From assembly GCA_964542585.1 (NCBI GenBank), contig CAZIUI010000002.1, positions 12,117 to 76,116 of the forward strand: a DNA stretch of 64,000 bases, in the 5' to 3' direction. The DNA comes from an uncultured Sphingobacteriales bacterium (GTDB lineage: Bacteria; Bacteroidota; Bacteroidia; CAILMK01; CAYYUA01). Positions 16,510 to 62,212 of the stretch are shown here, piece by piece. The notes under the pieces were generated by a model. It made no database searches, was not told the origin of the DNA, and worked only from the letters and a program-made list of their open reading frames with translations. The position numbers and the translations under genes are program-made. The stretch's first letter is position 1; the number at the start of each line of letters is the position of its first letter.

Positions 16510-16550
16510 TACCCTTTTCAGACCAATTTTATAATTTTGTAAAGGCTTTA

Positions 16551-16622: not shown

Positions 16623-16662
16623 CTGCTTAGGCTATTCAAGTGTAAGCTGCTACCATTTTTTT
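16621..16662 (+). terminator. Intrinsic terminator, the candidate expression platform of riboswitch 1
   Basis: The stem AGCTGCTTA / TAAGCTGCT is 9 bp with one T-T mismatch and a 13-nt loop, followed by ACCATTTTTTT (seven T). Confidence 0.55.
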
Positions 16663-16694
16663 CTCTCTCATTTTCCTCTAAACGCCATCTCAAA

Positions 16695-16775
16695 GGGGTG
16701 GGGTCTTTTTTAGAAAGACCTCTGAGAACAGACCCGTAGAACCTGACACTGGTAATGCAGGCGCAGGGATCGAGC
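16695..16775 (+). promoter_or_regulatory. TPP riboswitch aptamer 2 (THI-box), in tandem with aptamer 1
   Basis: GGGGTGGGGTCttttttagaaaGACCTCTGAGAacagACCCgtaGAACCTGAcacTGGTAATGCaGGCGCAGGGA matches the same consensus. Confidence 0.8.
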
Positions 16776-16850
16776 AACTGGTAATTTTTTATGCAGTGGA
16801 ATCCGACCCCTTGATTCCGCCGAATTGTGGAATCAAAGACTGCTAAAAGT

Positions 16851-33100: not shown

Positions 33101-33675
33101 AAATTGAGTAATGTTGAGTTTTGCACACGATCCTGAATGCCTCCTCCATAAAGCATTTCATTAATCAGAACTCTTGCTATTGACTCACGAATCGTATTAA
33201 GAAAATCGAAATGGTTGCCATTATAGTAAACAAAAGCATGGTTATCTACAATGGGTGTTACACCATTGGGATCATCTTTCTTGGCTGAATAGCCGATGTT
33301 GGTTTGTCTTAGGTCAGCATAAGAGTTGTAAACTATGAGCTTGAGCCGGCTTTTAGCACGGTAATCCAAGCGATCTTGAAGTTTTTTGAGGTATTGAGTA
33401 GCGTGACGCCCAGCAAATCGCGCAAGGTTTCTACCGCCAGTGTAAAAGTAAATATCAAACGCTTCTGCCTTGTAGAACCGCCAGTCAAACTCTTTATGCT
33501 GGACCCGATTCCTTCCAAACCTTATATCAGTCCCTTGTGCCTGAACACCATGAGATAACCATAAGCCAGCCATGGCTACAAAAATTAGAATCCCTCCATA
33601 TTTAGCGGCAGCGGCCCGGGTATTATTTGTATGTCTTTTCACAGCCTTTAATAACATTTCAGGTGCTTTCAGCAA
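30163..33675 (-). CDS. Large outer-membrane protein with a signal peptide, WD40-like PD40/TolB-type beta-propeller repeats and a C-terminal Omp85/bacterial-surface-antigen-like beta-barrel
   Basis: The product is 1170 aa with a signal peptide ...LWLSHGVQAQG. PD40-like repeats include DPFDDLHPQFTPDGKALVFSSNRY. The C-terminus has NMRGFDQNIRNGNSYSLFNSELRIPL ... YLSLGLDF, ending in an aromatic residue, which is a typical Omp85 barrel terminus. Confidence 0.55.
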   Translation of the reverse strand: MLKAPEMLLKAVKRHTNNTRAAAAKYGGILIFVAMAGLWLSHGVQAQGTDIRFGRNRVQHKEFDWRFYKAEAFDIYFYTGGRNLARFAGRHATQYLKKLQDRLDYRAKSRLKLIVYNSYADLRQTNIGYSAKKDDPNGVTPIVDNHAFVYYNGNHFDFLNTIRESIARVLINEMLYGGGIQDRVQNSTLLNLPDWYLQGLADYLGNPLSQEDLSNFRDGILSGKYSKFQQLNKEEKVFISQLIWRYIATSYGKSSISNILYLNKVNKSLESGFAFVLGKDYNELYEEWYRYYRRKFEENQRPLEKAPSQANLVKTPDAFHKSKVTSAKLGPQGEQLAYVTNNQGRKKVWLYNTKTGDREKIYREGYRAQVLERDYNYPLIAWHPQRPQLMIVDNEKDIVVFKQYNVDEDEIESRRKNFRLEKITDMNYGPRGNYLALSAIDNGRSDIYLFNWQTNNMRPITRDPFDDLHPQFTPDGKALVFSSNRYNDTIKRRRRRRGNALTGFNTSFDIFYYKYREQGNELQRLTYTPLIDEFKPNAYDTSYLSYLTTRNGVTNRSATRLDSLFQYSQITVGYKDSAQFPNDTFRFSKKDSSDLVFPRYALADTGLRFVDTNFYYKDTAYTYTLTNRRRSIRDYQIDHRKKRITEFYKVNGKYRMAHYPLPDSAPAKATNLTMTGYGSVLRDHNRKRIESPLVAAKFSNSPQASTSNDVKPSKGEQDTTEKVDINDYYFQSEFDNQQKQAEKPKAIKDQKSKENNTGKRPSLGRARSYELSFTPNYLQSQLDNSIINTRYLPYNQENPESSVYNPVLNAMTKMGVSDLFQDYRITGGFRILGNLQGADYFMRYQNLKQRLDKKWTFFRHGEKKQQGNRRQVQETSYEIRYSLKWPFNEVTSIKGDVFARRDNNITLSSERRTLEEPNDPQNWLGVDFEYVFDNTLDIGKNTKSGTRFKLYASGYRAFNLKGFADEKTSFGVIGGDFRNYIPIFRDMILANRLSFASSFGQAKVVYFMGGTDNWLFPQFNDEVDVSNEQNYVYKSPATNMRGFDQNIRNGNSYSLFNSELRIPLFRMFNNKPVISPFFKNFQLIAFGDIGSAWTGLNPFKKNNALNEETINRGPLEISIINLSNPFVAGYGFGIRTNLLGYFVRMDYAWGVENNLVKNKGKFYLSLGLDF

Positions 33676-33677
33676 TC

Positions 33678-35780
33678 CTAATATCCGCCGTAATATTTCC
33701 TAAAGAACCATTCCCCTCCTAATAATAGCACTAAAGCCCAAAACAACATTTGCGCGTGTATTAATTCCTTTAGTTCGTATTCCCGCTTTGAGGTTCGTTT
33801 CAATTGTCCCGACTTTTCTAGCTTATCAGGCAAATTATTTATTTCCCGTGCATAAACAAGCTTACCATTGTTTTCGCTTGCCAGGTTTTTTAACAATGCA
33901 TGATTTGCAACAGTAGTTAGGTGTTCCTTATTAACAGGTTTAACTACAAAAGAACCCGATCTTCTAAAAGTCTCATCACCATAAGAAGCTTCAGCTGTAA
34001 AGTCATATTTACCAACAGGTAGATAACCAACTTCAACTTGATACCCGTCTTTAGATGAGGTAAAATCAAAATCATAAGTATCCCCTTTTTGGTTACTAAT
34101 AGCAATACTTATCGTTGCATCTCTCACAGGTTCATAACTCTCATTGTAAAATTCAGCTTGAAAACGAATCCGTTCATTTTCTAAGTATTGATTCTGCTTA
34201 TTCACTAACCGGAATCGCCTTTTTTGCGCATCTACCGCTAAGTACTGAACCGATTTTGCGAGGAAATTTGGGATTGCCTCATGCTGATCTAAAACCCGGT
34301 ATTCATTTAAATACCATCGCCATAAACCAGTGGCCGTAAAAATCCCAACTTTATGATTGGGCTTTGTAAGGAAAGTGAACAAGGGCTTTTGGCTAATAAC
34401 CTCTCCAATTTTTTGCTGGAGCAAAGTATTACTGGGAGCATTTAAACGGTAAGATGCAAGTGGTGAATTTACCGGGGGAAGTTGCGGTAAGAGCTTTTTC
34501 AAGGACTTGCTGATACTGAAGGCATTGAATCCTTCTTTCAAATCTGCCTGTACCTGATTGGCATTGCTGCTTTTGCGCTCAATGGCAAAACCTAGGTTGA
34601 GTTGGTTTAAAGCCGAGAAAGCCGTTTTATTGCCCAATATATAAAGGGTCGGTATGGCTTTTTTATTCGCTCGCCTTAGCAATTCACGACCATTTCCACC
34701 TGAGGCAGGAAGCTGGTGAAAAACAAAAACATCATACCCTTCCATTTCTTCGTTGGCCTTTTGCCATTGATCCAAAGTAAAGGTACTAACAGTGTACCGC
34801 TTACGGCTTTTCAGTGCCTGCTTGATAACTCCAACATCAGGATGGGGATGTTGGGCAATAACAGCAACTTTCCTTTTGCTTTTTAAGGCTTCTATATAAA
34901 AAGAACGGGTATTATTGGCCTGGCTAACTTCTCCATCCTCAGTTTCAAGTATTGCTTTAAACGATTTTAATCCGGGTTCTTCAATCCTGAAAAAAGCCTT
35001 TATAGTGGTATCCAGATCATCGGAACCCGACCTTATACTTTGCTGAAAAACCTGTTTTCCTGCTTTTTTTATCGTAAGATCTGTCGATTTACCCTTGAAG
35101 GATTCTGCCTGGACCTGAATTTCCACCGGAAATTTACTTCCAGCGTATACAATATCGTTGTGTTGAATCCTACGGATAAGCCAATCTTTTGGGGGAATCG
35201 TGTCACCCATAGCAATTGTATAAATGGGCGATTGCAGTTTACGAGCAACACTCATAGGTGGTTGCCCTTGATTGTATATACCATCGCTGGCAAGGATAAT
35301 AGCACCAAGGTTTCGATTGTAATAATCATCATAAATTTTTTCCAGCGGCTTGGACAGATTGGATGCCCTTGCCTCATAGGTTAGCTCTTTCTCATTGGAC
35401 ACTTGGCTTCCATAGGCGTAGGTTTTAACTTGATAGGAATTTTCAAGGCGGGAGACAAGTCTTTTCATGGCTTTTGTAAAAGTGTCCCGGTAATAAGTAG
35501 AATCCCTATTGAGAAGTATTGATGCGGAATTATCCATTGCAACGGCAACTACTGGCTCTTGGACCTCTTTGTAGTAGGATTTGATAAAAGGTGATAGTAG
35601 CAGAAAAGCTATTAAGCTGACGGACAAGAACCGGAAAGTGGCTAATAGCCAATTGGGAAATGACCAGAAGCGGTTCCGCTCTCCAAAATACCGATTGTAA
35701 TACATTAAAAAGGCGTAAACTGCGCCAGCCAACAGGCAAAAAGCAATAAAATAAACGGGGTAAGCAAACTGTAGAGACAT
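33678..35780 (-). CDS. Membrane-anchored VWA-like domain protein (two N-terminal TM helices and a DxSxS MIDAS-like motif)
   Basis: The 700-aa product has N-terminal TM helices and then VVAVAMDNSASI, which resembles a BatA-like VWA start. There is a 2-nt gap to the downstream 1170-aa gene, so this is probably one operon. Confidence 0.5.
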   Translation of the reverse strand: MSLQFAYPVYFIAFCLLAGAVYAFLMYYNRYFGERNRFWSFPNWLLATFRFLSVSLIAFLLLSPFIKSYYKEVQEPVVAVAMDNSASILLNRDSTYYRDTFTKAMKRLVSRLENSYQVKTYAYGSQVSNEKELTYEARASNLSKPLEKIYDDYYNRNLGAIILASDGIYNQGQPPMSVARKLQSPIYTIAMGDTIPPKDWLIRRIQHNDIVYAGSKFPVEIQVQAESFKGKSTDLTIKKAGKQVFQQSIRSGSDDLDTTIKAFFRIEEPGLKSFKAILETEDGEVSQANNTRSFYIEALKSKRKVAVIAQHPHPDVGVIKQALKSRKRYTVSTFTLDQWQKANEEMEGYDVFVFHQLPASGGNGRELLRRANKKAIPTLYILGNKTAFSALNQLNLGFAIERKSSNANQVQADLKEGFNAFSISKSLKKLLPQLPPVNSPLASYRLNAPSNTLLQQKIGEVISQKPLFTFLTKPNHKVGIFTATGLWRWYLNEYRVLDQHEAIPNFLAKSVQYLAVDAQKRRFRLVNKQNQYLENERIRFQAEFYNESYEPVRDATISIAISNQKGDTYDFDFTSSKDGYQVEVGYLPVGKYDFTAEASYGDETFRRSGSFVVKPVNKEHLTTVANHALLKNLASENNGKLVYAREINNLPDKLEKSGQLKRTSKREYELKELIHAQMLFWALVLLLGGEWFFRKYYGGY

Positions 35781-38844: not shown

Positions 38845-39732
38845 ATGAAAGTTGCTGTTTACGCAAGATCGCTTAACACGCTTCAGCGATCCCTTATAGA
38901 CCACTTTTTCGAACAATTAGCATACTACCAAATAAATTACCTTCTATATGATCAGTTCATGGAGGATTTAAAGCAGCACTATGGGCTGATATTAGAAGAC
39001 ATCGAATCTTTTACGAAGGATGAAGATTTAGCTCAACGTCAAGTTCAAGCCTTGGTAAGCCTTGGAGGAGATGGCACTTTATTGGATACCCTTCAATTGG
39101 TGAAAAATAGCAACATTCCTGTAATGGGAATCAATACAGGCCGGTTAGGATTTTTAGCGAACACCCCCAAGCAGGAAATCGGGAAGGCTTTGGCAGCGCT
39201 TAAGGGGGGGCAATACACAACCGAGTCAAGGGGGCTATTGGAGATATCAACCAATTTAAACCCTTTTGAAAATGCACCATACGCTTTGAATGATTTTGTG
39301 GTGCAGAAAAGGGATTTTACCTCTATGGTTACGGTAGAAACTTATTTAAATGGCATTTACTTTAACACCTATTGGGCTGATGGTGTCATTGTTGCTACAC
39401 CAACGGGGTCCACAGGATATTCCCTAAGCTGTGGCGGGCCCTTGATTTTTCCTCATTCAGGAAGTTTTGTTATCACTCCCGTTGCGCCACATAATCTAAC
39501 TATTCGCCCTATTATACTCTCAGACCAGTCTGAGTTAAAATTGAAAGTAACAGGAAGGGATAGTAATTTTCTAGCGTCACTGGATTCAAGATATACCACA
39601 GTGGATAAGCATCAGGAAATCGTTTTACGCAAGGCGCCTTTTGTTTTTAATTTAATCAAACTTCCGCACCAGTCCTTTATTCAAACCATTCGGGACAAAT
39701 TGAAATGGGGGGCAGACTCTCGGAATGAATAA
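38845..39732 (+). CDS. nadK: NAD kinase
   Basis: GGDGTLL and NTGRLGFL are present, along with the C-terminal DGVIVATPTGSTGYSLS motif. Confidence 0.9.
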   Translation: MKVAVYARSLNTLQRSLIDHFFEQLAYYQINYLLYDQFMEDLKQHYGLILEDIESFTKDEDLAQRQVQALVSLGGDGTLLDTLQLVKNSNIPVMGINTGRLGFLANTPKQEIGKALAALKGGQYTTESRGLLEISTNLNPFENAPYALNDFVVQKRDFTSMVTVETYLNGIYFNTYWADGVIVATPTGSTGYSLSCGGPLIFPHSGSFVITPVAPHNLTIRPIILSDQSELKLKVTGRDSNFLASLDSRYTTVDKHQEIVLRKAPFVFNLIKLPHQSFIQTIRDKLKWGADSRNE

Positions 39733-39794
39733 AGTTTTGATTTAGAAATAAAAGAATATAACTTTGAGACCGATTTTATAAATACCATAATCCA

Positions 39795-40592
39795 ATGATA
39801 TCAAAAAAAACCCTTGTAGCCATTTGCCTTTTTGTTTTTTCATTAAACTTAGCTCGCTCACAGGATATTGAAGCTGGAATAATGGTTGGCCCCTCCAACT
39901 ACAGTGGAGATTTAACAGCAGATAGACTTACCTTTTCGGAAACTCAGCCTGCTGCCGGTCTTCTTTTCAGGTACTACTTTTCTCCTAAGTTTAATTTAAA
40001 AGCTTCTTTGTCTTATGCCAGGGTTTCCGGTGATGATGAGAATTATGACGATATAAATTTTCGGGAAAAAAGAAATTTAAGTTTTAAAAGCAACATTTTT
40101 GAGGCCTCCATTCAAGGAGAATATAATATACTACCCTATATAAGCAATACCAAAGAATACAATTGGTCTCCCTATGTTTTCGGCGGTGTTGCCCTTTATC
40201 GTTTTAATCCGAAAGCGGATTTTCAAGGTTCTACAGTAGACCTAGCAGATTTTACTACCGAAGGTGAAGATTATAGCCTAACACAACTGGCCATTCCATT
40301 TGGCGTAGGGATAAAATATAGCATTGGCAATCGATGGAATATTGGCTTAGAAATCGGTGCGCGTAAGCTTTTCACTGATTATTTGGATGATGTGAGTGAT
40401 GAGTATGTTCAGCTTAGTGGTCAAGCCGCTGACATTGCCGATCGTTCAGATGAGTTAGTCCAATTTAACCAAGAACAATTTTCACCTGGTAATACCCGGG
40501 GAAATTCAAGTAACAAGGATTGGTATGGGATAGCTGGCTTTACCATCACTAAGACCTTCCGTAGCAGTGGATGTACAAAAGATTTTTATTAA
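39795..40592 (+). CDS. DUF6089-like outer-membrane beta-barrel protein, paralogue 1 of 5
   Basis: A signal peptide is followed by the shared motifs GPSNYSGDL, ARVSGDDENY, RNLSFKSNIFEASIQGEYN, LTQLAIPFGVGIKYSI and FTDYLDDVS, and a C-terminal Cys-containing tail (SSGCTKDFY). Confidence 0.7.
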   Translation: MISKKTLVAICLFVFSLNLARSQDIEAGIMVGPSNYSGDLTADRLTFSETQPAAGLLFRYYFSPKFNLKASLSYARVSGDDENYDDINFREKRNLSFKSNIFEASIQGEYNILPYISNTKEYNWSPYVFGGVALYRFNPKADFQGSTVDLADFTTEGEDYSLTQLAIPFGVGIKYSIGNRWNIGLEIGARKLFTDYLDDVSDEYVQLSGQAADIADRSDELVQFNQEQFSPGNTRGNSSNKDWYGIAGFTITKTFRSSGCTKDFY

Positions 40593-40632
40593 TTTTCGTC
40601 CTTTAATTACCTTAAGGATGACGCTGCTACTT

Positions 40633-41460
40633 ATGAAAAGACTTGTAATAATTCTAGGGCTGTGCCTCCCAATATCAGGAGCTGCGCAAGATTGGGAATT
40701 TGGAATATTTGCAGGTGCTCCGTTTTACACAGGTGAGCTTACCAATGATAAGCCTATTGTTCTAAGCGAAACCAAGCCGGGTTTTGGAGGTTTCGCCAGG
40801 TATAATGTTAACAAGTACTTCACTATCAAATCAAACGTTTATTACGGGACCATCAGTGGTGATGATGCTAATGCTTCATCCCGTTCGGATCGTATTCGTA
40901 ACCTTAGTTTTCGATCCGACATTCTCGATTTAGGTGTGCAAGGAGAATTTAATTTTTCTGGTTTTAATACCTTGAAAGAAAACCTAAGGTCCTCCTTTTA
41001 TGGCCTTTTAGGTGTTTCTGTTTTCAGATTCAATCCTGAAGCTAAATTCAATGGGAAGTGGTATGAACTTCAACAGTTAGGAACGGAAGGGCAGGGGACA
41101 GCTAAATTCAACGAGCGAGATCCTTACGCATTGACCCAAATAGCCATTCCTTTCGGAGTCGGGTTTAAGCACGCAATTAATAAGCATTGGGTTATTGGAT
41201 TTGAAGTAGGTTTCAGGTACACTTTCACTGATTACATAGATGATGTGAGCAAAACTTATGTTAGCCCGAGCATTCTAAGAGGGACCAACGGTGAAATTTC
41301 TCCACAGCTTTCCAACAGGACAGGGGAAGTCCTGGAGGATGGTCGTAAAGAATTAAATTCTCAAGACCAAAGAGGTGATCCCACCACCAATGATGCCTAT
41401 CATTTTGTTGGTTTAACGCTTTCTTACACCGTGATCCCAGACAATTGTTTTAAATTCTAA
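40633..41460 (+). CDS. DUF6089-like outer-membrane beta-barrel protein, paralogue 2 of 5
   Basis: The same motif set is present (GAPFYTGELT, GTISGDDANAS, RNLSFRSDILDLGVQGEFN, LGTEGQGT, LTQIAIPFGVGFKHAI, FTDYIDDVS, C-terminal DNCFKF). The ORF track starts at 40567 and overlaps paralogue 1. I chose the ATG at 40633 because it gives the signal peptide MKRLVIILGLCLPISGAAQ. Confidence 0.65.
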   Translation: MKRLVIILGLCLPISGAAQDWEFGIFAGAPFYTGELTNDKPIVLSETKPGFGGFARYNVNKYFTIKSNVYYGTISGDDANASSRSDRIRNLSFRSDILDLGVQGEFNFSGFNTLKENLRSSFYGLLGVSVFRFNPEAKFNGKWYELQQLGTEGQGTAKFNERDPYALTQIAIPFGVGFKHAINKHWVIGFEVGFRYTFTDYIDDVSKTYVSPSILRGTNGEISPQLSNRTGEVLEDGRKELNSQDQRGDPTTNDAYHFVGLTLSYTVIPDNCFKF

Positions 41461-41496
41461 TCCAGGGAATTGGTTGCTTATTTAAATTAGTGTACT

Positions 41497-42327
41497 ATGA
41501 AAAAAAACTTGTTACTCCTAGTTTTATTCTTAGCGATTCCATTTTTTGGCCTTAGCCAGCATTGGTCCTTTGGCATTTTTGCGGGAGGATCCAATTATAA
41601 TGGAGAACTGAATGCAGCCCAGCCGGTTTTTTTGGAAGAAACGCACCCTAGTTTTGGAGTTTTAGGACGTTACAGTTTCTCGCCTTACGTAAGCGCAAAA
41701 GGTAGCCTAACATACGGCCGCATAAGTGGGAACGATGAGAACAATTCAGCCCCAAGCCGTGTGCAAGGGAGAAATTTAAGCTTTCGATCAGATATTTTTG
41801 AGGCCAGCCTTCAAGCTGAAATAAATATATTTGGTTTTGACCCAACTGACAATGATCATCATTTTGCCTTATATCTTTTGGGAGGGATTTCGGTCTACCA
41901 TTTCAATCCCCAATCAAAATATCAAGGAGAATGGTATGATTTACAAAATCTAGGAACTGAAGGTCAGGGAACTGACCGGTTCCCTAATAGAGAAAAATAT
42001 AGCCTGACTCAGGTGTCGTTTCCCGCAGGAGGCGGTATCAAGTATGCAATAAATCACAATTGGAGTTTAGGTATTGAATTTGGGGCAAGAAAAACCCTTA
42101 CGGATTACCTGGATGATGTCAGCCGAACCTACGCACCGCAGAGCGTTTTTGACGGCCCGGATGATCCCGCTTATCGGCTTTCTAACAGGACTTGGGAAAG
42201 CTTTGATGAAGCCAAAGATTATGGGGCTAATAACAGAAGGGGGAACCCGGAAACATCAGATTGGTACATGTTTGGTGGTATAACCTTGACCTACACTATA
42301 GCCGGCCCTCATTGTCAAGGTTTTTAA
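41497..42327 (+). CDS. DUF6089-like outer-membrane beta-barrel protein, paralogue 3 of 5
   Basis: The signal peptide is MKKNLLLLVLFLAIPFFGLSQ. Motifs GGSNYNGELN, GRISGNDENNS, RNLSFRSDIFEASLQAEIN, LGTEGQGT, LTQVSFPAGGGIKYAI and LTDYLDDVS are present, with a C-terminal PHCQGF. Confidence 0.7.
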   Translation: MKKNLLLLVLFLAIPFFGLSQHWSFGIFAGGSNYNGELNAAQPVFLEETHPSFGVLGRYSFSPYVSAKGSLTYGRISGNDENNSAPSRVQGRNLSFRSDIFEASLQAEINIFGFDPTDNDHHFALYLLGGISVYHFNPQSKYQGEWYDLQNLGTEGQGTDRFPNREKYSLTQVSFPAGGGIKYAINHNWSLGIEFGARKTLTDYLDDVSRTYAPQSVFDGPDDPAYRLSNRTWESFDEAKDYGANNRRGNPETSDWYMFGGITLTYTIAGPHCQGF

Positions 42328-42411
42328 TAAACTATCTAAAATCAAGTCTTATGTTATTTTAACTTTTTTTTGAATATCATCACTTGGCTTTTACATAAAA
42401 GTTAAAATAAA

Positions 42412-42449
42412 AAAGGCTTTGTTTATTTTCATTGAAAAGCCTTTTCTTT
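42412..42449 (+). terminator. Intrinsic terminator inside the paralogue array, between copies 3 and 4
   Basis: A perfect 9-bp stem AAAGGCTTT / AAAGCCTTT encloses a 14-nt loop and is followed by TTCTTTG. Confidence 0.55.
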
Positions 42450-42477
42450 GTATTAAAGGAACAAAGGCTTTCAATTT

Positions 42478-43311
42478 ATGAGGCGCATATGCTTTATTTT
42501 TCTCCTCATTGTAATGCCATGCATCACCAAAGGGCAAAATTGGGAATTGGGTGCTACTATAGGCGGTGCCAACTATAATGGTGAGCTTGCACCTGTTGAT
42601 CCTGTCGTTCTCAAAGAAACCAAACTATCAATTGGTGCTTTTGCGAAGTATTCCATTTCAGAAAGGATAAAGGTGAAAGGCACCATTACCTACGCTACTA
42701 TTAGTGGGGATGATGCAAATTACAACACACCAAGGCTCCGCAAAAGGCGAAACCTGGACTTTAAGTCTCCCATTTTTGAAATAGGAGTTCTAGGTGAATA
42801 CCACTTTTGGAAGATCAATGAAAGTTTTCGTAAGCCAACCACTTCCTTTTATGGTGTCACGGGTATAGCGTTGTTCAATTTTAATCCTAAAGCAAAATTC
42901 GAAGGAGAATTAGTAGAACTTCAACCCCTAGGGACCGAAGGACAAGGAACCTCAGCATTTCCGGATCGTGAAAAGTATAGCTTAACCCAAATCTCCATTC
43001 CTATTGGGGCTGGTATAACTCACTCATTAAGCGACCACTTAAATATTGGGGTGGAAGTAGCCTTTAGGAAGACATTTACCGACTACTTGGATGATGTTAG
43101 CAAAACGTATGCTCCGAAGGATGCTTTGATAAGTCGTTATGGGGAAATCTCTTACCGGCTTTCGAATAGAACCTGGGAAACGAACGATCAGGCACTTGAT
43201 AAAGCGAACTCACGCAGGGGCAACCCAGAAACGGAAGACTGGTACTACTTTGGAGGTATAACTTTATCCTACACCTTTAAAGAAAACAAATGTCCGGGGT
43301 TCGGTAAGTAA
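42478..43311 (+). CDS. DUF6089-like outer-membrane beta-barrel protein, paralogue 4 of 5
   Basis: A signal peptide and motifs GGANYNGELA, ATISGDDANYN, RNLDFKSPIFEIGVLGEYH, LGTEGQGT, LTQISIPIGAGITHSL and FTDYLDDVS are present, with a C-terminal NKCPGFGK. Confidence 0.7.
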   Translation: MRRICFIFLLIVMPCITKGQNWELGATIGGANYNGELAPVDPVVLKETKLSIGAFAKYSISERIKVKGTITYATISGDDANYNTPRLRKRRNLDFKSPIFEIGVLGEYHFWKINESFRKPTTSFYGVTGIALFNFNPKAKFEGELVELQPLGTEGQGTSAFPDREKYSLTQISIPIGAGITHSLSDHLNIGVEVAFRKTFTDYLDDVSKTYAPKDALISRYGEISYRLSNRTWETNDQALDKANSRRGNPETEDWYYFGGITLSYTFKENKCPGFGK

Positions 43312-43393
43312 AATAATTCAAAAGCAATTCCAGAACGGGAAGGATATTATCAAGCGTACAATAAGAAGCGGGGATAAGCAGTTTTTAACAAGT

Positions 43394-44206
43394 ATGAGAT
43401 TCACCTTTTTGTACCTGTTAACTTTGCTCCTAAGCATGGGATGTTTTAGCTATGTTCAAGGGCAAAATTGGGAAGGTGGTCTGTTTGTAGGAGCAAGTAA
43501 TTACAAAGGCGACCTTGCCCCAAATGTTGTCCCTGGTGAAACTCACCCTGCTATTGGAGTTTTTGTAAAGCGAAACCTTAGTCCATTCTTCTCCTTTGCG
43601 CTTACGGCAAAACAAGGGACCATTTCTGGAGACGATGAAAATTTTAGTCATTTAGAAGATCGAAACCTTTCTTTCGAATCTAATCTTACGGAAGTTAGCG
43701 CTATTATTGAATTTAATTTTTTTCCATTTCTGAAAGGATTGGGAGCTGATCAATTTACGCCCTACGTCTACTCCGGTTTTGCTTTTTATCGTTTTGAACC
43801 AACGACCACTATTAACGGTCAAACTTTTGATTTAAAGGATCTTAGGACAGAAGGACAGGGAACCAGAAGTGATGGCCCTGGTAATTACAGTAAATTGCAA
43901 CCAGCTATTCCCATTGGAGGAGGATTTAAACTACAGCTCAACCGCAGGCTAAACTTGACTCTTAAGCTTGGTTATCGGGCAACTTTTACAGATTTCCTAG
44001 ATGACGTAAGTACTGACTATCCTTCAAAAGACATATTAGCTAGTGCTAAAGGAGACCGGGCTGTTAGCCTAAGCGATAGAAGTGTTGATGAATGGTACAC
44101 CGGAAAAGGAAAACAGCGCGGAAATTCCCAAAATAACGACTGGTACCTATTTACGGGTTTTACTTTTTCATATAACATCAAAAACCCGGAATGCTATGAG
44201 TTTTAA
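43394..44206 (+). CDS. DUF6089-like outer-membrane beta-barrel protein, paralogue 5 of 5, the most divergent
   Basis: A signal peptide and motifs GASNYKGDLA, GTISGDDENFS, RNLSFESNLTEVSAIIEFN, RTEGQGT and FTDFLDDVS are present, with a C-terminal PECYEF. Confidence 0.65.
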   Translation: MRFTFLYLLTLLLSMGCFSYVQGQNWEGGLFVGASNYKGDLAPNVVPGETHPAIGVFVKRNLSPFFSFALTAKQGTISGDDENFSHLEDRNLSFESNLTEVSAIIEFNFFPFLKGLGADQFTPYVYSGFAFYRFEPTTTINGQTFDLKDLRTEGQGTRSDGPGNYSKLQPAIPIGGGFKLQLNRRLNLTLKLGYRATFTDFLDDVSTDYPSKDILASAKGDRAVSLSDRSVDEWYTGKGKQRGNSQNNDWYLFTGFTFSYNIKNPECYEF

Positions 44207-44226: not shown

Positions 44227-44967
44227 ATGACTGATAAGCGGGAGGAAATCCGTTATGATCATTTGCCTAAGCACATAGCTATCATAATGGATGGCAATGG
44301 AAGGTGGGCCAAAGAGCAAGGGGAAAATAGAATTTTCGGTCATAATCATGGAGTAACAGCAGTTAGAAATACAGCCGAGGCATGTGCTGAAGTAGGGATT
44401 GATTATTTAACCTTGTATGCGTTTTCCAGCGAGAACTGGAACCGGCCTGAACAGGAGGTGAATGCCTTGATGGATCTTTTGATCCAAACTATCCGCAGCG
44501 AAATGAAAACCTTACAGGATAACAACATTTCGCTTTCTGCCATTGGAAATTTAAACCAACTGCCAGAAGCTTGTCATACCAGTTTAGAAAGTGCTATTAA
44601 AGAAACCCAAGACAATACTGGACTAACCCTAAACCTTGCCCTTAGCTACAGTGGGAAATGGGATATAACAAAAGCAACAAAACAAATTGCCGGAGCAGTC
44701 AAAAGAGGGGAAATAGAACCAGATCAGATCGATGAATCGCTTATTGAGCAACACCTGACTACAGCTAATGTGCCAGATCCAGCTCTCCTGATTCGTACAA
44801 GCGGGGAAACCAGGGTTAGTAACTTTTTACTCTGGGAATTGGCTTATACAGAGTTATACTTTTTTAAGAAAAACTGGCCCGAATTTGAAAAAGCAGACCT
44901 TTTTCAAGCTATAATAGACTACCAAAACCGGGAACGCCGTTTTGGAATGATCAGCGAACAAATATAA
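44227..44967 (+). CDS. uppS: Isoprenyl transferase (undecaprenyl-diphosphate synthase)
   Basis: HIAIIMDGNGRWAKEQG and the C-terminal RFG motif are present. Confidence 0.9.
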   Translation: MTDKREEIRYDHLPKHIAIIMDGNGRWAKEQGENRIFGHNHGVTAVRNTAEACAEVGIDYLTLYAFSSENWNRPEQEVNALMDLLIQTIRSEMKTLQDNNISLSAIGNLNQLPEACHTSLESAIKETQDNTGLTLNLALSYSGKWDITKATKQIAGAVKRGEIEPDQIDESLIEQHLTTANVPDPALLIRTSGETRVSNFLLWELAYTELYFFKKNWPEFEKADLFQAIIDYQNRERRFGMISEQI

Positions 44968-44975
44968 CTAACCAG

Positions 44976-47483
44976 ATGATGAAGGCCGCGCACGGAATCC
45001 TGATAACTATTAGCTTTTGTTTTTTAGTATGTATACAACCTGATTTTGCAAAAGCTCAGGATGACTCTTCTGAAGTTAACAATGATATCATCCTGGATTA
45101 CCAAACACCTGCCACCTATAACCTCGCAGGAATATCGATAAAAGGTAACGGCCGCATAAACCGGAATGTAATAATTGCCTACACAGGTTTGCAAGTGGGC
45201 CAAGAAATAAAAGTTCCCGGTGATGAAATAGCCGATGCTATCAAAAATTTATGGAAGCAAGATTTATTCAAAGATGTAGCCATCAAAATCAATAAAGTTG
45301 ACCAAATAGAAGACAAAATATACTTACTTATAGACCTTAAGACCAGGCCGCGGCTTCGCCAGTTTAAAATAAATGGTGTTTCTCAAAATGAAGCCTCTGA
45401 TATCCGTGAGAGGATTAAACTTGTACGGGGCGATATTATCACTAAACAATTGATAAGGTCCATTAAAGAAAAGATTAAAAGTTATTTCAACAGTGAGGGA
45501 TACATGAGTGCGGAGATTTCAATAAGGGGTAAGGATGAAAGTTTGTTTTCCTCTCCTAATAGCACAATGATCATTGATATCAATAAAGGAGAAAAAGTTA
45601 AAATTAAAGATATAACATTTTCAGGTAATCAAGCTTTTGATGATGGTAAGTTAAGGAGTCAACTTGAAAACACGAATAGAAAAACTATCCTCAACCTCTT
45701 TAAGTCATCGAAATTTATACCTTCAAAATATAAAAAAGATAAAGAAAAATTAATCAAATTTTACCAAAACCATGGTTACAGGGACGCTAAAATTGTAAGC
45801 GACAGCACATATCTGGTAGAAGATGATAGAGTAAAAATTCATATTGATCTAAAGGAGGGAAATCAATACTATTTTGGCGATATAACTTTTCAAGGTAATA
45901 CGGAATACAGTTCGAAATTTCTCAGTTCCGTGCTTAACATTGAAAAAGGAGAGGTTTACTCGCCTAAAAAGCTCCAAACGAACCTACGATTCAATAAGAG
46001 AGGCTTAGATATCTCCTCTTTATACATGGACAATGGTTTCTTGTTTTTTAACGTCAAGCCCGTTGAAACCAACCTTTACCAAGATACGGTAGATATTCAG
46101 ATTCGTATCAAGGAAGGTAAACAAGCTACCATTGATGAGATTACCGTTAGTGGGAACACCAAAACCAGTGACCACGTAATTTTAAGGGAATTAAGAACAA
46201 GACCTGGAGATAAGTTTAGCCGCTCTGATATTATCCGATCAAGAAGAGAACTTTCGAGGTTAGGATATTTCGATGCCAAAAAAATTAGTATAACTCCTAA
46301 ACCAAACCCTGAAGAAGGAACAGTTGATATCAACTACGATGTAGTAGAAAAACCGAGTGATCAGCTACAGTTACAAGGAGGCTGGGGTGCTGGCCAATTA
46401 GTAGGTAGCGTAGGTATTCAATTCAACAACTTCTCCTTAGATAAAATCGATAACCTGGACGCCTGGCGTCCATTGCCGGCTGGAGATGGCCAAAAATTAA
46501 GCCTAAGGGCGACTTCCAATGGACCTCGTTACAGTTCCATCAACTTCTCATTCACCGAGCCTTGGTTTGGTGGCCATAAACCTAACTCTTTAACGGTTGG
46601 TGCTTTTTATTCCGTTCAGGCCACAGGTGGCTTCAATAGTTCCAGCAGAAGGTCACTTGAAATCTTGGGGGCTAATATTGGCTTGGGTAAACGCCTCCAA
46701 TATCCCGATAATTATTTCACCCTTAATAACACGTTAGAATTCCAGCAGTATCAGTTAAATGATTACCGAGCCCTTCCCCTGGACTTCACAAATGGCACCT
46801 CGTATACCATTAGCCTTAAGCACAAAATATCCCGTAACTCAGTCAATCGCAAAATTTATCCTACAGCCGGTTCTGAATTTTCGTTATCGCTCAAATACAC
46901 GCCACCGGTTTCAGCTTTTACCAATTTGAACTACAATGAGGTATCAGCCCAGCGTAAGTTTAAGTGGATTGAATTTCACAAATGGAAATTTAAAGCATCT
47001 TACTTCCTTAACTTAGGAGGCGACCTGGTATTAAATCCACGAGCCGATTTTGGTTATCTAGGCTTCTATAACAACGATATTGGGATTACACCTTTTGAAC
47101 GATTTTACGTAGGAGGTGATGGCCTCCAGGGTTTTCAGCTTGATGGCCGAGAACTAATTCGTCTTCGCGGATATCAGCAAGATGCCCTTAGCCCAAGGCA
47201 AGGAGCTAACGTTTTTAACAAGCTTACGATGGAACTCAGGTACCCTGTCATACAAAAAAGATCGGCTACTATTTACTTTTTAGGGTTTTTAGAGGCCGGC
47301 AATAGCTGGTTAGGAATTGATAAATTTACCCCTTCTGAAATTCATCGCTCTGCAGGAGGTGGTATAAGGGTTTTCTTACCTATGTTTGGGCTTTTAGGAG
47401 TTGATTGGGGTTATGGTTTTGACTATGAAAATGTACAGAGCAAACCGGGCCAGATACACATTTCAATTGGCCAAAGGTTTTAA
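44976..47483 (+). CDS. bamA: Outer-membrane protein assembly factor BamA
   Basis: The product is 835 aa with a signal peptide, POTRA repeats and an Omp85 barrel ending ...HISIGQRF. It directly follows uppS, as in the conserved cluster. Confidence 0.88.
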   Translation: MMKAAHGILITISFCFLVCIQPDFAKAQDDSSEVNNDIILDYQTPATYNLAGISIKGNGRINRNVIIAYTGLQVGQEIKVPGDEIADAIKNLWKQDLFKDVAIKINKVDQIEDKIYLLIDLKTRPRLRQFKINGVSQNEASDIRERIKLVRGDIITKQLIRSIKEKIKSYFNSEGYMSAEISIRGKDESLFSSPNSTMIIDINKGEKVKIKDITFSGNQAFDDGKLRSQLENTNRKTILNLFKSSKFIPSKYKKDKEKLIKFYQNHGYRDAKIVSDSTYLVEDDRVKIHIDLKEGNQYYFGDITFQGNTEYSSKFLSSVLNIEKGEVYSPKKLQTNLRFNKRGLDISSLYMDNGFLFFNVKPVETNLYQDTVDIQIRIKEGKQATIDEITVSGNTKTSDHVILRELRTRPGDKFSRSDIIRSRRELSRLGYFDAKKISITPKPNPEEGTVDINYDVVEKPSDQLQLQGGWGAGQLVGSVGIQFNNFSLDKIDNLDAWRPLPAGDGQKLSLRATSNGPRYSSINFSFTEPWFGGHKPNSLTVGAFYSVQATGGFNSSSRRSLEILGANIGLGKRLQYPDNYFTLNNTLEFQQYQLNDYRALPLDFTNGTSYTISLKHKISRNSVNRKIYPTAGSEFSLSLKYTPPVSAFTNLNYNEVSAQRKFKWIEFHKWKFKASYFLNLGGDLVLNPRADFGYLGFYNNDIGITPFERFYVGGDGLQGFQLDGRELIRLRGYQQDALSPRQGANVFNKLTMELRYPVIQKRSATIYFLGFLEAGNSWLGIDKFTPSEIHRSAGGGIRVFLPMFGLLGVDWGYGFDYENVQSKPGQIHISIGQRF

Positions 47484-47503: not shown

Positions 47504-48100
47504 ATGCGTACTTTTATCAAATTTTTGCTTCCACTTGCTTTCATAGCCGGTTTACCTTTCATTAGCAATGCCCAGCGAATAGCATATGTCAATACAGATT
47601 ATATCCTCGAAAACCTTCCCCAATACAAAGCCGCGCAAGACCAACTAGATGATCTTACGAAAAAGTGGAAGAGTGAGATACAACAGCGAGTAAAGGAAAT
47701 TGATAAACTTAACAGTAAATATAAAGCGGAGAAAGTCCTATTGCCAAAGGATGAAAAGCAACAAATGCAGAAACAAATTGCCCAAAAGGAGAAGGCTTTG
47801 AGGAAATACAAGGAAGAAAAATTTGGAGAAGAAGGTAAATTATTTCAGAAAAGAAAGGAACTTGTTAAGCCTATTCAAGACAGAGTCTTTGATGCGGTTC
47901 AGAAATTGGCTAAAGAGCAGTCCCTTGATATCATATTTGATAAAGCTGGTGCTACTACAATGCTTTACACCAATGCAAGGTATGACCGTAGTGACAAAGT
48001 GCTCAAACTCATGGGTATTAATCCGGATAAAAATAAGGATAAGCAGGAAGATGATAAACAAACCCTACCCGATGCTCCAGATGGCCCCGGCGATAATTGA
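47504..48100 (+). CDS. ompH: OmpH/Skp-family periplasmic chaperone, copy 1
   Basis: A signal peptide is followed by IAYVNTDYIL and a K/E/Q-rich coiled coil. Confidence 0.8.
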   Translation: MRTFIKFLLPLAFIAGLPFISNAQRIAYVNTDYILENLPQYKAAQDQLDDLTKKWKSEIQQRVKEIDKLNSKYKAEKVLLPKDEKQQMQKQIAQKEKALRKYKEEKFGEEGKLFQKRKELVKPIQDRVFDAVQKLAKEQSLDIIFDKAGATTMLYTNARYDRSDKVLKLMGINPDKNKDKQEDDKQTLPDAPDGPGDN

Positions 48101-48235: not shown

Positions 48236-48739
48236 ATGAAGCATCTAGTTCGTATTTTTCTCACCCTATTGCTTGGCTCCATTACCTTAAATGCAGCAGG
48301 TCAGAAGCTTGCCCATGTTAATAGAAGTCAGATTCTTCAGAATATGCCTGAAGTCCAAAAGGCACAAAAAAACCTGAAATCTTACAGTAAAGAATTGGAA
48401 ACTCAGGTGCAACAATTATTAAAAGAATATCGAAATAAGACCAAGAACTTCCAGAAAAACCGGAAGTCCATGTCCGTAACTGAACGAAAGGATGAACAGC
48501 GAGCGCTTAAAAGCCTGGAAGAAAGAATTCAAAAGTTCCGGAAAGATGCCCAAAAGCAAGTATCTCAAAAGCGGTCAGAATTACTGAAGCCCATTATGGA
48601 AAATATCAATAATGCCATCCAGGCTATAGCAAAGGAAAAAGGGTATACTTATGTTTTTGATGCTTCTCAGGGATCTGTCCTTTATGCGGAAGAAAGCAGG
48701 AACATCACCCCGTTAGTTAAACAACGGCTAGACATGTAA
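48236..48739 (+). CDS. ompH: OmpH/Skp-family periplasmic chaperone, copy 2
   Basis: A signal peptide is followed by LAHVNRSQIL and a K/E/Q-rich coiled coil. Confidence 0.8.
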   Translation: MKHLVRIFLTLLLGSITLNAAGQKLAHVNRSQILQNMPEVQKAQKNLKSYSKELETQVQQLLKEYRNKTKNFQKNRKSMSVTERKDEQRALKSLEERIQKFRKDAQKQVSQKRSELLKPIMENINNAIQAIAKEKGYTYVFDASQGSVLYAEESRNITPLVKQRLDM

Positions 48740-48746
48740 TTAACTG

Positions 48747-49586
48747 ATGCCAGATAGTCGACCTATAGGTGTCTTCGATTCCGGCATTGGTGGATTAACG
48801 TTGGTTCATGCCCTCGGTAACGCCTTACCTTACGAGCGCATAATTTTTTTTGGTGATACCGCTCACTTACCTTATGGTGACAAGTCTGTTAAGAACATAC
48901 AGGCTTTTGCACAAGAAATTCTGCGTTTTTTTTACCAGCAGAACTGCAAAGCAGTATTGATCGCTTGTAACACCGCGTCTGCAATAGCATACCCCAAGTT
49001 ATTGAAGTCATGGGATTCTTACCTCTTGCTTTTTAATGTCATTGACCCGGTCGTCCGTACTTGCATTCAATTTTATAAACCCCACAATGTAGGGGTAATC
49101 GGTACCAGAAGTACTATTCAATCAAGGTCCTACCCGCGTAAATTTAACCAGTCAGACAGGACAATAGCCGTAACCACTGCCTCTACTCCTTTACTGGCAC
49201 CGATGATTGAAGAGGGATTTTACAACAATAAGATTAGCCATACCCTCATCAGTGCTTACCTGAGTAAAAAACAGTTTGAAGGTATCGAAGCTTTAATCTT
49301 GGGATGTACCCATTATCCTTTAATTAAAACGGAAGTTGAGTCCTTCTACAGAGGTTCAACTCCAGTATTAGATAACATTGACCCTACAGTTAATGAATTA
49401 GTTGGTACCCTTAGTGACAAAGAGATGCTAAACAATGGCTTAGAACCCAATTCAGCCAACCTTAAAACTTTGAACACTTTCTACGTTTCTGACTACACCC
49501 AATCATTTGAGGAAACAGCCAGGCTGTTCTTCGGTGCCTCTGTAAGCCTCCAAAAGTACGACATTTGGGGCTATGATGTGGGCTAA
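48747..49586 (+). CDS. murI: Glutamate racemase
   Basis: IGVFDSGIGGLT and ACNTAS (the catalytic Cys) are present. Confidence 0.88.
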   Translation: MPDSRPIGVFDSGIGGLTLVHALGNALPYERIIFFGDTAHLPYGDKSVKNIQAFAQEILRFFYQQNCKAVLIACNTASAIAYPKLLKSWDSYLLLFNVIDPVVRTCIQFYKPHNVGVIGTRSTIQSRSYPRKFNQSDRTIAVTTASTPLLAPMIEEGFYNNKISHTLISAYLSKKQFEGIEALILGCTHYPLIKTEVESFYRGSTPVLDNIDPTVNELVGTLSDKEMLNNGLEPNSANLKTLNTFYVSDYTQSFEETARLFFGASVSLQKYDIWGYDVG

Positions 49587-58296: not shown

Positions 58297-58310
58297 GGCA
58301 CCTTGTTTAA

Positions 58311-59888: not shown

Positions 59889-59944
59889 AAATTATCTATA
59901 ATTTTAACAACTTAAAACACTTATTGCTATGTTTTCCAATTGAA

Positions 59945-60754: not shown

Positions 60755-60815
60755 TTTATCTTAGGTTTTAGTTAGTTAAAAGGATACAACATTTCTTGAT
60801 AAATCACTATCTATC

Positions 60816-62120: not shown

Positions 62121-62212
62121 CTATTCAAAGCAATTAGTCTCAGATAATGCTATAACTAACAATTACATGGCTGAACGAAGTTAGCAAAAGTTTATTATTG
62201 TCAAATTTTTGA

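What the first reader, a model, noticed from the sequence alone, without database searches (positions are those of the whole stretch)
39795..44206. Five-gene tandem array of diverged DUF6089-like outer-membrane beta-barrel paralogues between nadK and uppS-bamA
In Bacteroidota the CBS-protein, nadK, one small beta-barrel OMP gene, uppS, bamA, ompH, ompH, murI neighbourhood is conserved and normally holds one copy of this gene. Here five consecutive same-strand genes of 265-297 aa each start with a signal peptide and share a collinear motif set. That set is G.SNY.G(D/E)L, (Y/T)(A/G).(V/I)SGDD(E/A)N, RNLSF.S.I.E, LGTEGQGT, LTQ.(A/S)IP.G.G(I/F)K.(S/A)I and the invariant FTDYLDDVS, plus a C-terminal G.T.SY followed by a Cys-containing tail. 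They are only about 35-45% identical to each other, so this is an old, retained expansion and not an assembly duplication. An intrinsic terminator at 42412-42449 and a 150-bp AT-rich gap split the array 3+2, which suggests at least two transcription units. Five BamA-substrate-like barrels encoded directly upstream of bamA and the two skp/ompH chaperone genes may be a dedicated outer-membrane remodelling module, with the copies swapped by condition in the manner of porin paralogue sets.
Basis: partly seen in the sequence, partly recalled or inferred. Interest (0 to 1): 0.7.

Follow-up and report, generated by a model that had tools for sequence, protein, structure and literature searches.

The report
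Five-copy PorG (T9SS) gene array
The five small outer-membrane barrel genes are real, but they are diverged copies of PorG, a known part of the Bacteroidota type IX secretion machine that is disulfide-tethered to the GldK/PorK track, and the five-copy array is an old, inherited trait of this uncultured lineage rather than a porin-like swap set.

Summary
Five same-strand genes (39795-44206) between nadK and uppS-bamA all hit Pfam DUF6089. All five also pass the curated NCBIfam equivalog cutoff for the T9SS protein PorG. AlphaFold models of copies 3 and 5 (pLDDT 93 and 92) are 8-stranded OmpA/OmpX-like barrels with a short periplasmic C-tail.

Each copy keeps one Cys in that tail. The window's own GldK (60816-62120) keeps the cysteine that bonds PorG in P. 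gingivalis PorK (Cys356).

The array is not unique. Uncultured relatives at 56-84% identity carry the same five genes in the same order. All five copies show pN of 0.10-0.18, as low as nadK and uppS.

Across about 160 loci, PorG occurs in 1-5 tandem copies with a conserved class order A-B-C. This window reads A-B-B-B-C. Paralogues differ most on the periplasmic face (22% identity, against 42-47% elsewhere).

The claimed terminator is a weak hairpin found only in this window. Conserved promoter-like boxes precede copy 1 and copy 4.

The porin-style "condition swap" reading is not supported. Specialised PorG tethers on one GldK track is the best reading. Multi-copy PorG was not found in the searchable literature. 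Interest is moderate.

The parts
39759..39766 (+). Promoter-like box TAACTTTG, matching the Bacteroidota -7 consensus TAnnTTTG, 36 nt before the copy 1 ATG
   Evidence: the same box sits at -36/-38/-39 in the window, L002 and L005. The background frequency of T[AT]NNTTTG is 0.9 per kb.
39795..40592 (+). porG copy 1 (class A), 265 aa; tail ...SSGCTKDFY; lacks the 9-aa QGTxxFxxR insert in loop 3
   Evidence: (PorG 185.5 bits against a cutoff of 130)
40633..41460 (+). porG copy 2 (class B), 275 aa from ATG 40633 (the mechanical ORF from GTG 40567 overlaps copy 1); tail ...PDNCFKF
   Evidence: 154 bits; orthologues are 275 aa
41497..42327 (+). porG copy 3 (class B), 276 aa; tail ...GPHCQGF; modelled as an 8-stranded barrel
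   Evidence: 159 bits; pLDDT 93.3, pTM 0.86; OmpA/OmpX/Ail fold
42411..42446 (+).
   Evidence: (dG -9.6; whole-spacer z = -5.2 here, about 0 in L002/L004/L005). Not called by the scan.
42443..42450 (+). Promoter-like box TTTCTTTG, 35 nt before the copy 4 ATG; conserved in four lineages
   Evidence: TT(T/C)(C/A)TTTG at a fixed distance in the window, L002, L005 and L004, while the rest of the spacer does not align.
42478..43311 (+). porG copy 4 (class B), 277 aa; tail ...ENKCPGFGK
   Evidence: (152 bits)
43394..44206 (+). porG copy 5 (class C), 270 aa; tail ...NPECYEF; 20 nt upstream of uppS
   Evidence: 172 bits; pLDDT 91.9, 8 strands
38845..39732 (+). nadK, upstream boundary of the array
   Evidence: NF002521, 364.6 bits
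44227..49586 (+). uppS (44227-44967), bamA (44976-47483), skp/ompH x2 (47504-48100, 48236-48739) and murI (48747-49586): the conserved bamA locus downstream of porG
   Evidence: The same order occurs in L004, L005 and L169. It is the P. gingivalis Aim operon (PMC12773653).
57415..63184 (-). porP/sprF (62213-63184), gldK (60816-62120), gldL (59945-60754), gldM (58311-59888) and gldN (57415-58296): the T9SS core operon. GldK Cys309 aligns with PorK Cys356, the PorG-binding cysteine.
   Evidence: Pfam; alignment to PDB 9mzu_A PorK; Cys356 is the PorG-interacting residue

Best explanation

Proposed mechanism:
- Each protein is exported by Sec. Its signal peptide is cleaved before an invariant Gln, and BamA inserts it into the outer membrane.
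- The four long, conserved loops face outward. The short turns and a 9-12-residue C-tail face the periplasm.
- The single tail cysteine (motif C-x-x-F at the C-terminus) is inferred to form a disulfide with Cys309 of the GldK lipoprotein encoded 17 kb away. This would tether each barrel to the motor-driven GldK/GldN track, as shown experimentally for the single PorG of F. johnsoniae and P. gingivalis.

Origin of the array:
- It descends from an older three-class array in the order A-B-C.
- The middle class was triplicated, giving A-B-B-B-C, before the window lineage split from L002, L004 and L005.
- All five copies have since been kept under purifying selection.

Specialisation (inferred):
- The paralogues differ mainly on their periplasmic face (turn T2 and the tail) and share their extracellular loops.
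- The most likely reading is therefore that they are specialised tethers. They would use the same attachment chemistry to one track but differ in periplasmic contacts, and hence in clients or roles in secretion.

Transcription (inferred):
- Copies 1-3 are probably transcribed from a promoter after nadK.
- Copies 4-5 are probably transcribed from an internal promoter, possibly reading on into uppS-bamA.

What is shown: family membership, fold, the conserved cysteines on both partners, orthology and selection. What is inferred: the disulfide itself, the specialisation and the transcription units.
For: - All five exceed the curated equivalog cutoff of NF052316 T9SS_PorG (152-185 bits against 130) and hit DUF6089.
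- AF2 models of copies 3 and 5 are confident 8-stranded barrels. Their best PDB matches are the OmpA transmembrane domain, Ail, OmpX and OmpW.
- The tail Cys is present in all five copies and in all of their orthologues.
- Window GldK Cys309 aligns with PorK Cys356, which is the PorG-binding residue (PMC12635249; PMC12365241).
- porP-gldKLMN is in the same window.
- Positional orthology holds across the window, L002, L005 and L004. Copies 2-4 form one clade that is sister to the middle copy of three-copy arrays.
- pN is 0.10-0.18 for every copy, against saturated pS of about 0.8. This matches nadK (0.167) and uppS (0.119).
- The class order A-B-C is conserved in 2-, 3- and 4-copy arrays of other lineages.
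- The periplasmic turns plus tail are 66% identical within orthogroups but 22% identical between paralogues. Strands are 75/47 and extracellular loops 71/42.
- The class A turn and tail motifs are conserved in distant lineages.
- Promoter-like boxes are conserved upstream of copies 1 and 4.
Against: - No experiment exists on any of these proteins. The disulfide, outer-membrane location and T9SS role all rest on homology.
- The canonical single-copy PorGs are equidistant from all five orthogroups, so it is unknown which copy or copies carry the ancestral PorG function.
- Some class B paralogues in other lineages have lost the tail Cys (48 of 64 retain it). PorG-like barrels can therefore work without the tether.
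- Divergence on the periplasmic face could partly reflect relaxed constraint on short turns after duplication. Within-orthogroup conservation of 66% argues against that, but it rests on only 3-4 lineages per group.
- The promoter calls are motif matches only.
Confidence: 0.6

Rival explanations
1. The five barrels form a dedicated outer-membrane remodelling module, placed next to bamA and skp because they are special BAM substrates. Copies would be exchanged by condition, as with porin paralogue sets such as OmpF/OmpC.
For: The genes sit directly upstream of bamA and two skp genes. There are probably two transcription units, so differential expression is possible.
Against: The bamA-adjacent position is the ordinary location of single-copy porG in Flavobacterium and P. 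gingivalis. Eight-stranded barrels have no porin channel. The extracellular loops are conserved between paralogues rather than diversified. All five score as PorG and keep the tethering Cys. In P. gingivalis, PorG is not needed for T9SS outer-membrane barrels to insert into the membrane (PMC12365241).
Confidence: 0.08
2. Plain redundancy or dosage. The copies all do the same PorG job and are kept only to raise or buffer PorG supply.
For: All five share the fold, the conserved loops and the Cys tail. PorG is sub-stoichiometric to GldK/PorK in the model organisms, so more copies could in principle be accommodated.
Against: The copies are only 36-47% identical, yet each has been conserved position-for-position across lineages whose synonymous sites are saturated. 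Dosage duplicates normally stay similar or are lost. Class-specific periplasmic motifs are conserved across distant lineages. The A-B-C order is conserved in arrays of 2-5 genes.
Confidence: 0.1
3. Partial co-option. Only one class acts as PorG in secretion. The other classes would be track-tethered barrels with a different job, for example placing or clearing the track, or carrying surface proteins along it the way SprF carries SprB.
For: GldK Cys343 is shared by two different outer-membrane clients, PorG and SprF, in F. johnsoniae. PorG also affects track morphology (PMC12635249). Class A has its own strongly conserved turn (LP[FY]IS[NG]) and tail (TKT.R...C). Some class B members elsewhere lack the Cys.
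Against: All five copies pass the PorG equivalog threshold with similar scores. None resembles PorP/SprF. There is no evidence in this window that the organism glides: gldKLMN is also the T9SS core, and no gldJ or sprB was seen.
Confidence: 0.2

Closest known systems
PorG of Porphyromonas gingivalis (PGN_0297 / PG0189) and Flavobacterium johnsoniae (Fjoh_1692), T9SS outer-membrane component
   Same: Same family (NCBIfam NF052316 equivalog and Pfam DUF6089). Same 8-stranded barrel. Gln follows the signal peptide. The periplasmic C-tail carries cysteine. The locus is the same, immediately upstream of uppS-bamA-skp. The partner GldK/PorK carries the conserved reactive Cys.
   Different: There are five diverged copies (36-47% identity) in three classes instead of one gene. 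The proteins are 265-277 aa rather than about 210-230 aa, with longer loops L3 and L4. The tail has a single Cys in a C-x-x-F end motif, as in P. gingivalis, rather than the C-x-C of Flavobacterium (L169 tail CFC). The periplasmic turns are class-specific.
SprF / PorP family (PF11751), the other outer-membrane proteins disulfide-linked to GldK
   Same: They may work alike: an outer-membrane barrel with a periplasmic C-tail cysteine bonded to the same GldK cysteine and moved by the track (PMC12635249). Both occur as multi-paralogue families.
   Different: There is no sequence relationship, since none of the five copies hits PF11751. SprF/PorP barrels are larger and carry Type B cargo. The window has a separate PorP/SprF gene at 62213-63184 whose C-tail lacks a twin-Cys motif.
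Small 8-stranded barrels: OmpA N-domain, OmpX, Ail, OmpW, NspA
   Same: Same fold class. Foldseek gives E = 3e-8 and target TM-score 0.74 against OmpA, and there are weak OMP_b-brl/OmpA_membrane Pfam hits.
   Different: Only 8-15% identity. PorG has large structured extracellular loops, a Cys tail, and none of the OmpA C-terminal peptidoglycan-binding domain.
   Same: Multiple paralogous outer-membrane barrels in one genome, possibly under more than one promoter.
   Different: Porins are 16-18-stranded trimeric channels that are scattered in the genome and differ in their pore and surface loops. These are 8-stranded, tandem and conserved on the outside, and they differ on the periplasmic side.

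Membership tests
T9SS PorG (NCBIfam NF052316, equivalog) | Whole-protein score above the curated equivalog cutoff (130 bits) | tested here: met
   185.5, 154.0, 159.2, 152.2 and 172.2 bits for copies 1-5, each covering model positions 1-2 to 207-208 of 209.
T9SS PorG | 8-stranded outer-membrane beta-barrel with both termini periplasmic | tested here: met
   AF2 models of copy 3 (pLDDT 93.3) and copy 5 (91.9) have 8 long strands. The top PDB folds are OmpA, OmpX and Ail. Copies 1, 2 and 4 are inferred from the gap-free alignment of the strands.
T9SS PorG | Cysteine(s) in the periplasmic C-tail | tested here: met
   There is one Cys 4-7 residues from the C-terminus in all five copies, and it is invariant in all orthologues. 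The feature is described in PMC12635249.
T9SS PorG | Partner GldK/PorK with the reactive cysteine (PorK Cys356 / GldK Cys343) in the same genome | tested here: met
   Window GldK (60816-62120) aligns to PDB 9mzu_A PorK with E = 1.6e-96. Cys309 sits opposite Cys356 within HGCFLANFKP / RGCFLGNFKP.
T9SS PorG | T9SS core genes present | tested here: met
   porP/sprF, gldK, gldL, gldM and gldN lie at 57415-63184.
T9SS PorG | Gene located at the bamA locus, upstream of uppS-bamA-skp | tested here: met
   The arrangement is the same in P. gingivalis, F. johnsoniae and a Flavobacterium contig, L169.
T9SS PorG | Forms a DTT-sensitive disulfide with GldK/PorK and is required for type IX secretion | not testable with these tools
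   This needs NEM-trapping blots, Cys mutants and secretion assays. The organism is an uncultured MAG.
Pfam DUF6089 (PF19573) | Score above the gathering threshold (23.2 bits) | tested here: met
   84.5-110.2 bits for all five.
General porins (condition-swapped paralogue sets) | 16-18-stranded channel-forming barrel | tested here: not met
   The models have 8 strands and no porin family was hit.
PorP/SprF (PF11751) | Profile match | tested here: not met
   None of the five copies hits PF11751. The window's true PorP/SprF at 62213-63184 hits with E = 1.3e-65.
OmpA-like transmembrane domain (PF01389) | Profile match over the whole barrel | tested here: inconclusive
   Only copy 3 gives a partial hit (residues 22-98, 25.2 bits). 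There is fold-level similarity only.

The most novel reading that the evidence does not exclude
PorG may not be a single T9SS part. It may be a family of at least three ancient classes (A, B, C) of track-tethered outer-membrane barrels. In this reading all classes attach through the same Cys-Cys chemistry to one GldK track, and each is specialised through its periplasmic turn and tail for a different client or task. Possible tasks include ejecting PorV-type versus PorP/SprF-type carrier-cargo complexes from the translocon, placing the track, or carrying surface proteins. This organism would then run five different 'cleats' on one track, and comparing the paralogues would show what PorG pushes on.
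Probability: 0.3. Interest if true: 0.7.

Novelty: new variant of a known kind. Interest (0 to 1): 0.42.

Why it matters
PorG's job became clear only in 2025, when it was shown to be disulfide-bonded to the moving GldK/PorK track. What it acts on is still unknown. Both model organisms have a single porG, and the papers I could search treat it as a single gene.

This work shows four things:
- Many Bacteroidota carry 2-5 tandem PorG paralogues in a conserved A-B-C order.
- All classes tend to keep the tethering cysteine.
- The paralogues differ specifically on the periplasmic side.
- This lineage maintains five copies under purifying selection.

Together these give a natural set of specificity variants. 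Swapping turns and tails between classes, or finding class-specific partners, could identify what PorG contacts. The result also corrects the annotation: these 'DUF6089 / opacity-like' proteins are T9SS components. In itself the finding is an expansion of a known family and a lineage trait, so it is of moderate rather than high interest.

Tried and rejected
- The terminator at 42412-42449 is not well supported. The scan found no + strand terminator. The hairpin is weak (dG -9.6, 15-nt loop) and competes with two alternative pairings. It is not conserved: spacer z-score is -5.2 in the window and about 0 in L002, L004 and L005. It is not a repeated element. I kept it only as a window-specific feature.
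- dN/dS could not be computed because synonymous sites are saturated (pS 0.78-0.97). I report pN against pS instead.
- A PDB sequence search with the five-copy profile found no PorG chain, only chance hits with E > 0.07.
- The AFDB Foldseek library was unavailable.
- Naming the organism failed. The closest named hit is 'Bacteroidetes bacterium SW_10_40_5' at 69%, and cultured taxa reach about 62%.
- Assigning the canonical single-copy PorG to class A, B or C failed, because the scores against all orthogroups are nearly equal.
- An assembly duplication or recent gene conversion is rejected (36-47% identity with positional orthologues).
- Lipoproteins are rejected, since there is no lipobox Cys and Gln follows the signal peptide.
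- A sixth copy in the window is rejected.


Full report
**1. Observation**

The ORF list shows five consecutive + strand genes at 39795-40592, 40567-41460, 41497-42327, 42478-43311 and 43394-44206. NCBIfam identifies the flanking genes as:
- nadK at 38845-39732, preceded by a gene with no NCBIfam hit whose L005 homologue has a faint CBS Pfam hit, and before that an alpha/beta hydrolase;
- uppS at 44227-44967;
- bamA at 44976-47483;
- two skp/ompH genes;
- murI.

All five hit Pfam DUF6089 with E-values from 9e-24 to 1e-31. They are 36-47% identical to each other. A profile built from the five finds no further copy in the window.

- Copy 2 most likely starts at ATG 40633, giving 275 aa as in its orthologues, not at the GTG inside copy 1.
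- 'FTDYLDDVS' is not invariant. The invariant core is TD[YF][LI]DDVS.
- Copy 1 lacks the 'QGT...' part of the TEGQGT motif.

**2. Identity**

NCBIfam is more specific than Pfam here. All five exceed the curated equivalog cutoff (130 bits) of NF052316, 'type IX secretion system protein PorG', with 152-185 bits over the full model.

PorG is an 8-stranded outer-membrane barrel that is essential for type IX secretion. In 2025 two groups showed that a cysteine in its periplasmic C-tail forms a disulfide with PorK Cys356 in P. gingivalis and with GldK Cys343 in F. johnsoniae. This links it to the motor-driven PorKN ring or GldJKN track (PMC12635249; PMC12365241).

The position upstream of uppS-bamA-skp is the normal porG locus:
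- the 'Aim operon' PGN_0296-0301 in P. gingivalis (PMC12773653);
- the bamA locus in F. johnsoniae (PMC12611786);
- CBS-nadK-PorG-uppS-bamA-...-ompH-murI on a Flavobacterium contig (L169).

**3. Structure and defining features**

AlphaFold2 models were built with a 125-sequence alignment. Copy 3 has mean pLDDT 93.3 and pTM 0.86, and copy 5 has 91.9 and 0.85. Both have eight long strands, two short and two long structured loops, and a short C-tail.

Foldseek against the PDB returns the OmpA transmembrane domain (E = 3e-8, target TM-score 0.74), Ail, OmpX, OmpW and NspA.

The tail must reach periplasmic GldK and the strand number is even. Loops L1-L4 (residues 36-49, 80-94, 136-170 and 201-255 of copy 3) are therefore extracellular. 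Turns T1-T3 and the tail (268-276, with Cys273) are periplasmic.

Every copy has one Cys 4-7 residues from the end, in a C-x-x-F-type terminus. Every copy also has Gln directly after the signal peptide. This is the Bacteroidota Q-rule, which P. gingivalis PorG follows too (PMC10653852).

**4. The partner is in the window**

Pfam finds porP/sprF (62213-63184), gldK (60816-62120), gldL, gldM and gldN (down to 57415) on the minus strand. Aligned to the solved P. gingivalis PorK (9mzu_A, E = 1.6e-96), the window's GldK places Cys309 exactly opposite PorK Cys356. That is the PorG-binding residue.

**5. Is the array special?**

The exact proteins come from an unnamed NCBI MAG contig of 182 kb. Its AspRS is at most about 62% identical to those of cultured taxa, so this is a deep uncultured Bacteroidota lineage.

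Relatives show the following:
- Contig L002 carries the same five genes in the same slot, with copies 71-84% identical to those in the window.
- L005 (56-72% identical) has the same five genes and identical wider synteny.
- L004 has at least four copies before its contig ends.

A neighbour-joining tree shows one-to-one positional orthology for all five. It places copies 2-4 in one clade, sister to the middle gene of three-copy arrays.

Synonymous sites between the window and L002 are saturated (pS about 0.8). Non-synonymous differences are 0.10-0.18 per site for every copy, the same range as nadK and uppS. All five are therefore functional genes kept by selection.

**6. Wider distribution**

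I scanned species-representative genomes (80 loci) and metagenome contigs (80 loci) and counted copies with the profile. Both samples are ranked by similarity to copy 1 and so are biased.

| Copies | All fetched loci incl. L001-L008 and the window | Metagenome loci plus L169 |
|---|---|---|
| 1 | 57 | 59 |
| 2 | 24 | 16 |
| 3 | 4 | 3 |
| 4 | 1 | 3 |
| 5 | 3 | 0 |

- The loci with five copies are the window, L002 and L005.
- Among the 17 species-representative loci that contain both nadK and uppS, the distribution is 6 with one copy, 9 with two and 2 with three.

Scoring every homologue against orthogroup profiles shows a conserved class order:
- three-copy arrays read A-B-C;
- four-copy arrays read A-B-B-C or A-A-B-C;
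- two-copy arrays next to uppS mostly read B-C;
- the window reads A-B-B-B-C.

Canonical single-copy PorGs are equidistant from all classes. In multi-copy arrays the tail Cys is present in 16 of 16 class A, 28 of 28 class C and 48 of 64 class B members.

I found no paper describing PorG paralogues or DUF6089 arrays.

**7. Where the paralogues differ**

The alignment was mapped onto the model topology.

| Region | Identity within orthogroups | Identity between paralogues |
|---|---|---|
| Strands | 75% | 47% |
| Extracellular loops | 71% | 42% |
| Periplasmic turns plus tail | 66% | 22% |
| Turn T2 alone | 65% | 16% |

Class A keeps its own turn (N[IL]LP[FY]IS[NG]) and tail (TKT.R...C) even in distant lineages. 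Cross-linking in P. gingivalis had placed a periplasmic loop of PorG near PorK and PorN. Divergence is therefore concentrated on the side facing the track, and the outside is conserved. That is the opposite of what porin-like or surface-variation paralogues would show.

**8. Transcription**

Spacers:

| Spacer | Window | L002 | L005 |
|---|---|---|---|
| nadK / copy 1 | 62 | 64 | 64 |
| copy 1 / copy 2 | 40 | 41 | 28 |
| copy 2 / copy 3 | 36 | 30 | 38 |
| copy 3 / copy 4 | 150 | 154 | 143 |
| copy 4 / copy 5 | 82 | 113 | 78 |
| copy 5 / uppS | 20 | 21 | 17 |

In the window the uppS/bamA gap is 8 nt.

A canonical Bacteroidota -7 box (TAnnTTTG; the consensus is cited from my own knowledge of Bacteroides and Flavobacterium promoters) lies 36-39 nt upstream of copy 1 in three lineages. 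A TTnnTTTG box lies 33-35 nt upstream of copy 4 in four lineages, while the rest of that spacer does not align.

A 3+2 organisation is therefore plausible, with copies 4-5 possibly co-transcribed with uppS-bamA. The evidence for it is the conserved promoter-like box, not the terminator.

**9. Interpretation**

The best-supported reading is five functional PorG paralogues. Each is inferred to be tethered through its tail Cys to GldK Cys309, and each is specialised on its periplasmic face.

Rivals are:
- the porin-like swap or remodelling idea (poorly supported);
- simple redundancy (argued against by deep, class-specific conservation);
- partial co-option, in which only one class is 'the' PorG and the others have other track-linked roles (not excluded).

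The disulfide itself, the specialisation and the expression pattern are untested.

**10. Verdict**

The functional interpretation should be replaced by T9SS PorG. The array is inherited, not unique.

It is a new variant of a known kind: an expanded, three-class PorG set. Interest is moderate, because it offers natural specificity variants for working out what PorG does.

Noticed in passing
window 16540-16635 and 16684-16786 (+), upstream of 16827-19298: Two tandem TPP riboswitch aptamers (65.4 and 56.2 bits, both above the Rfam gathering score) lie directly upstream of a TonB-dependent receptor with a CarboxypepD_reg N-domain. This is probably a thiamine or thiamine-precursor outer-membrane uptake gene under double riboswitch control.
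   Followed up: no
window 57415-63184 (-): A complete porP/sprF-gldK-gldL-gldM-gldN operon lies 13 kb downstream of the porG array. GldK keeps the PorG/SprF-binding cysteine (Cys309). The adjacent PorP/SprF protein has only one Cys, near its last strand (GYCF), and no twin-Cys tail.
   Followed up: partly
L020, L023, L050, L051, L065, L070, L075, L100, L136 (first PorG gene of two-copy arrays): In several Flavobacteriales and Bacteroidia-type two-copy arrays, the upstream (class B-like) paralogue ends in ...GRGxLPRF and has no C-tail cysteine, while the downstream copy keeps one. Some PorG-like barrels have therefore apparently lost the GldK tether.
   Followed up: partly
L010-L014, L017, L028, L032, L049, L052 and others (Saprospiraceae MAGs): Many Saprospiraceae genomes encode a single PorG-family protein with a ...GCP[TSK]F tail that is not next to nadK or uppS within the fetched flanks. 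A 2020 phylogenetic survey had reported that Saprospiria lack PorG (PMC7323717).
   Followed up: no
window 43312-43393; L002 5328-5440; L005 10841-10918: The copy 4 / copy 5 spacer has a conserved TACAATAA(A/G) motif followed by a purine-rich stretch in three lineages. It has no promoter-like -7 box, and its function is unknown.
   Followed up: no
window 42328-42477: The spacer between copies 3 and 4 is 23% GC and unusually structured in this genome only (MFE -36.1 kcal/mol, z = -5.2). It has three mutually complementary AAAGGCTTT/AAAGCCTTT arms that allow alternative hairpins. One of these would sequester the region just upstream of the copy 4 start codon. The orthologous spacers are unstructured.
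   Followed up: partly
window 30163-33675 (-) and 33678-35780 (-): Two large adjacent ORFs (1170 and 700 aa) have no Pfam hit at E <= 1e-6. The L005 homologue of the first has only faint Tricorn/PD40 hits.
   Followed up: no
window 13040-16509 (+): There is a haem biosynthesis cluster of uroporphyrinogen decarboxylase, ferrochelatase and an amine-oxidase-type protein (probably protoporphyrinogen oxidase). The last two ORFs overlap by about 70 nt as listed.
   Followed up: no
L089, L097, L099 (metagenome contigs): Independent four-copy PorG arrays occur in other uncultured lineages. Two read A-B-B-C. L099 reads A-A-B-C, so class A can also duplicate. The last copy in L089 has a long extension after its Cys.
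   Followed up: partly
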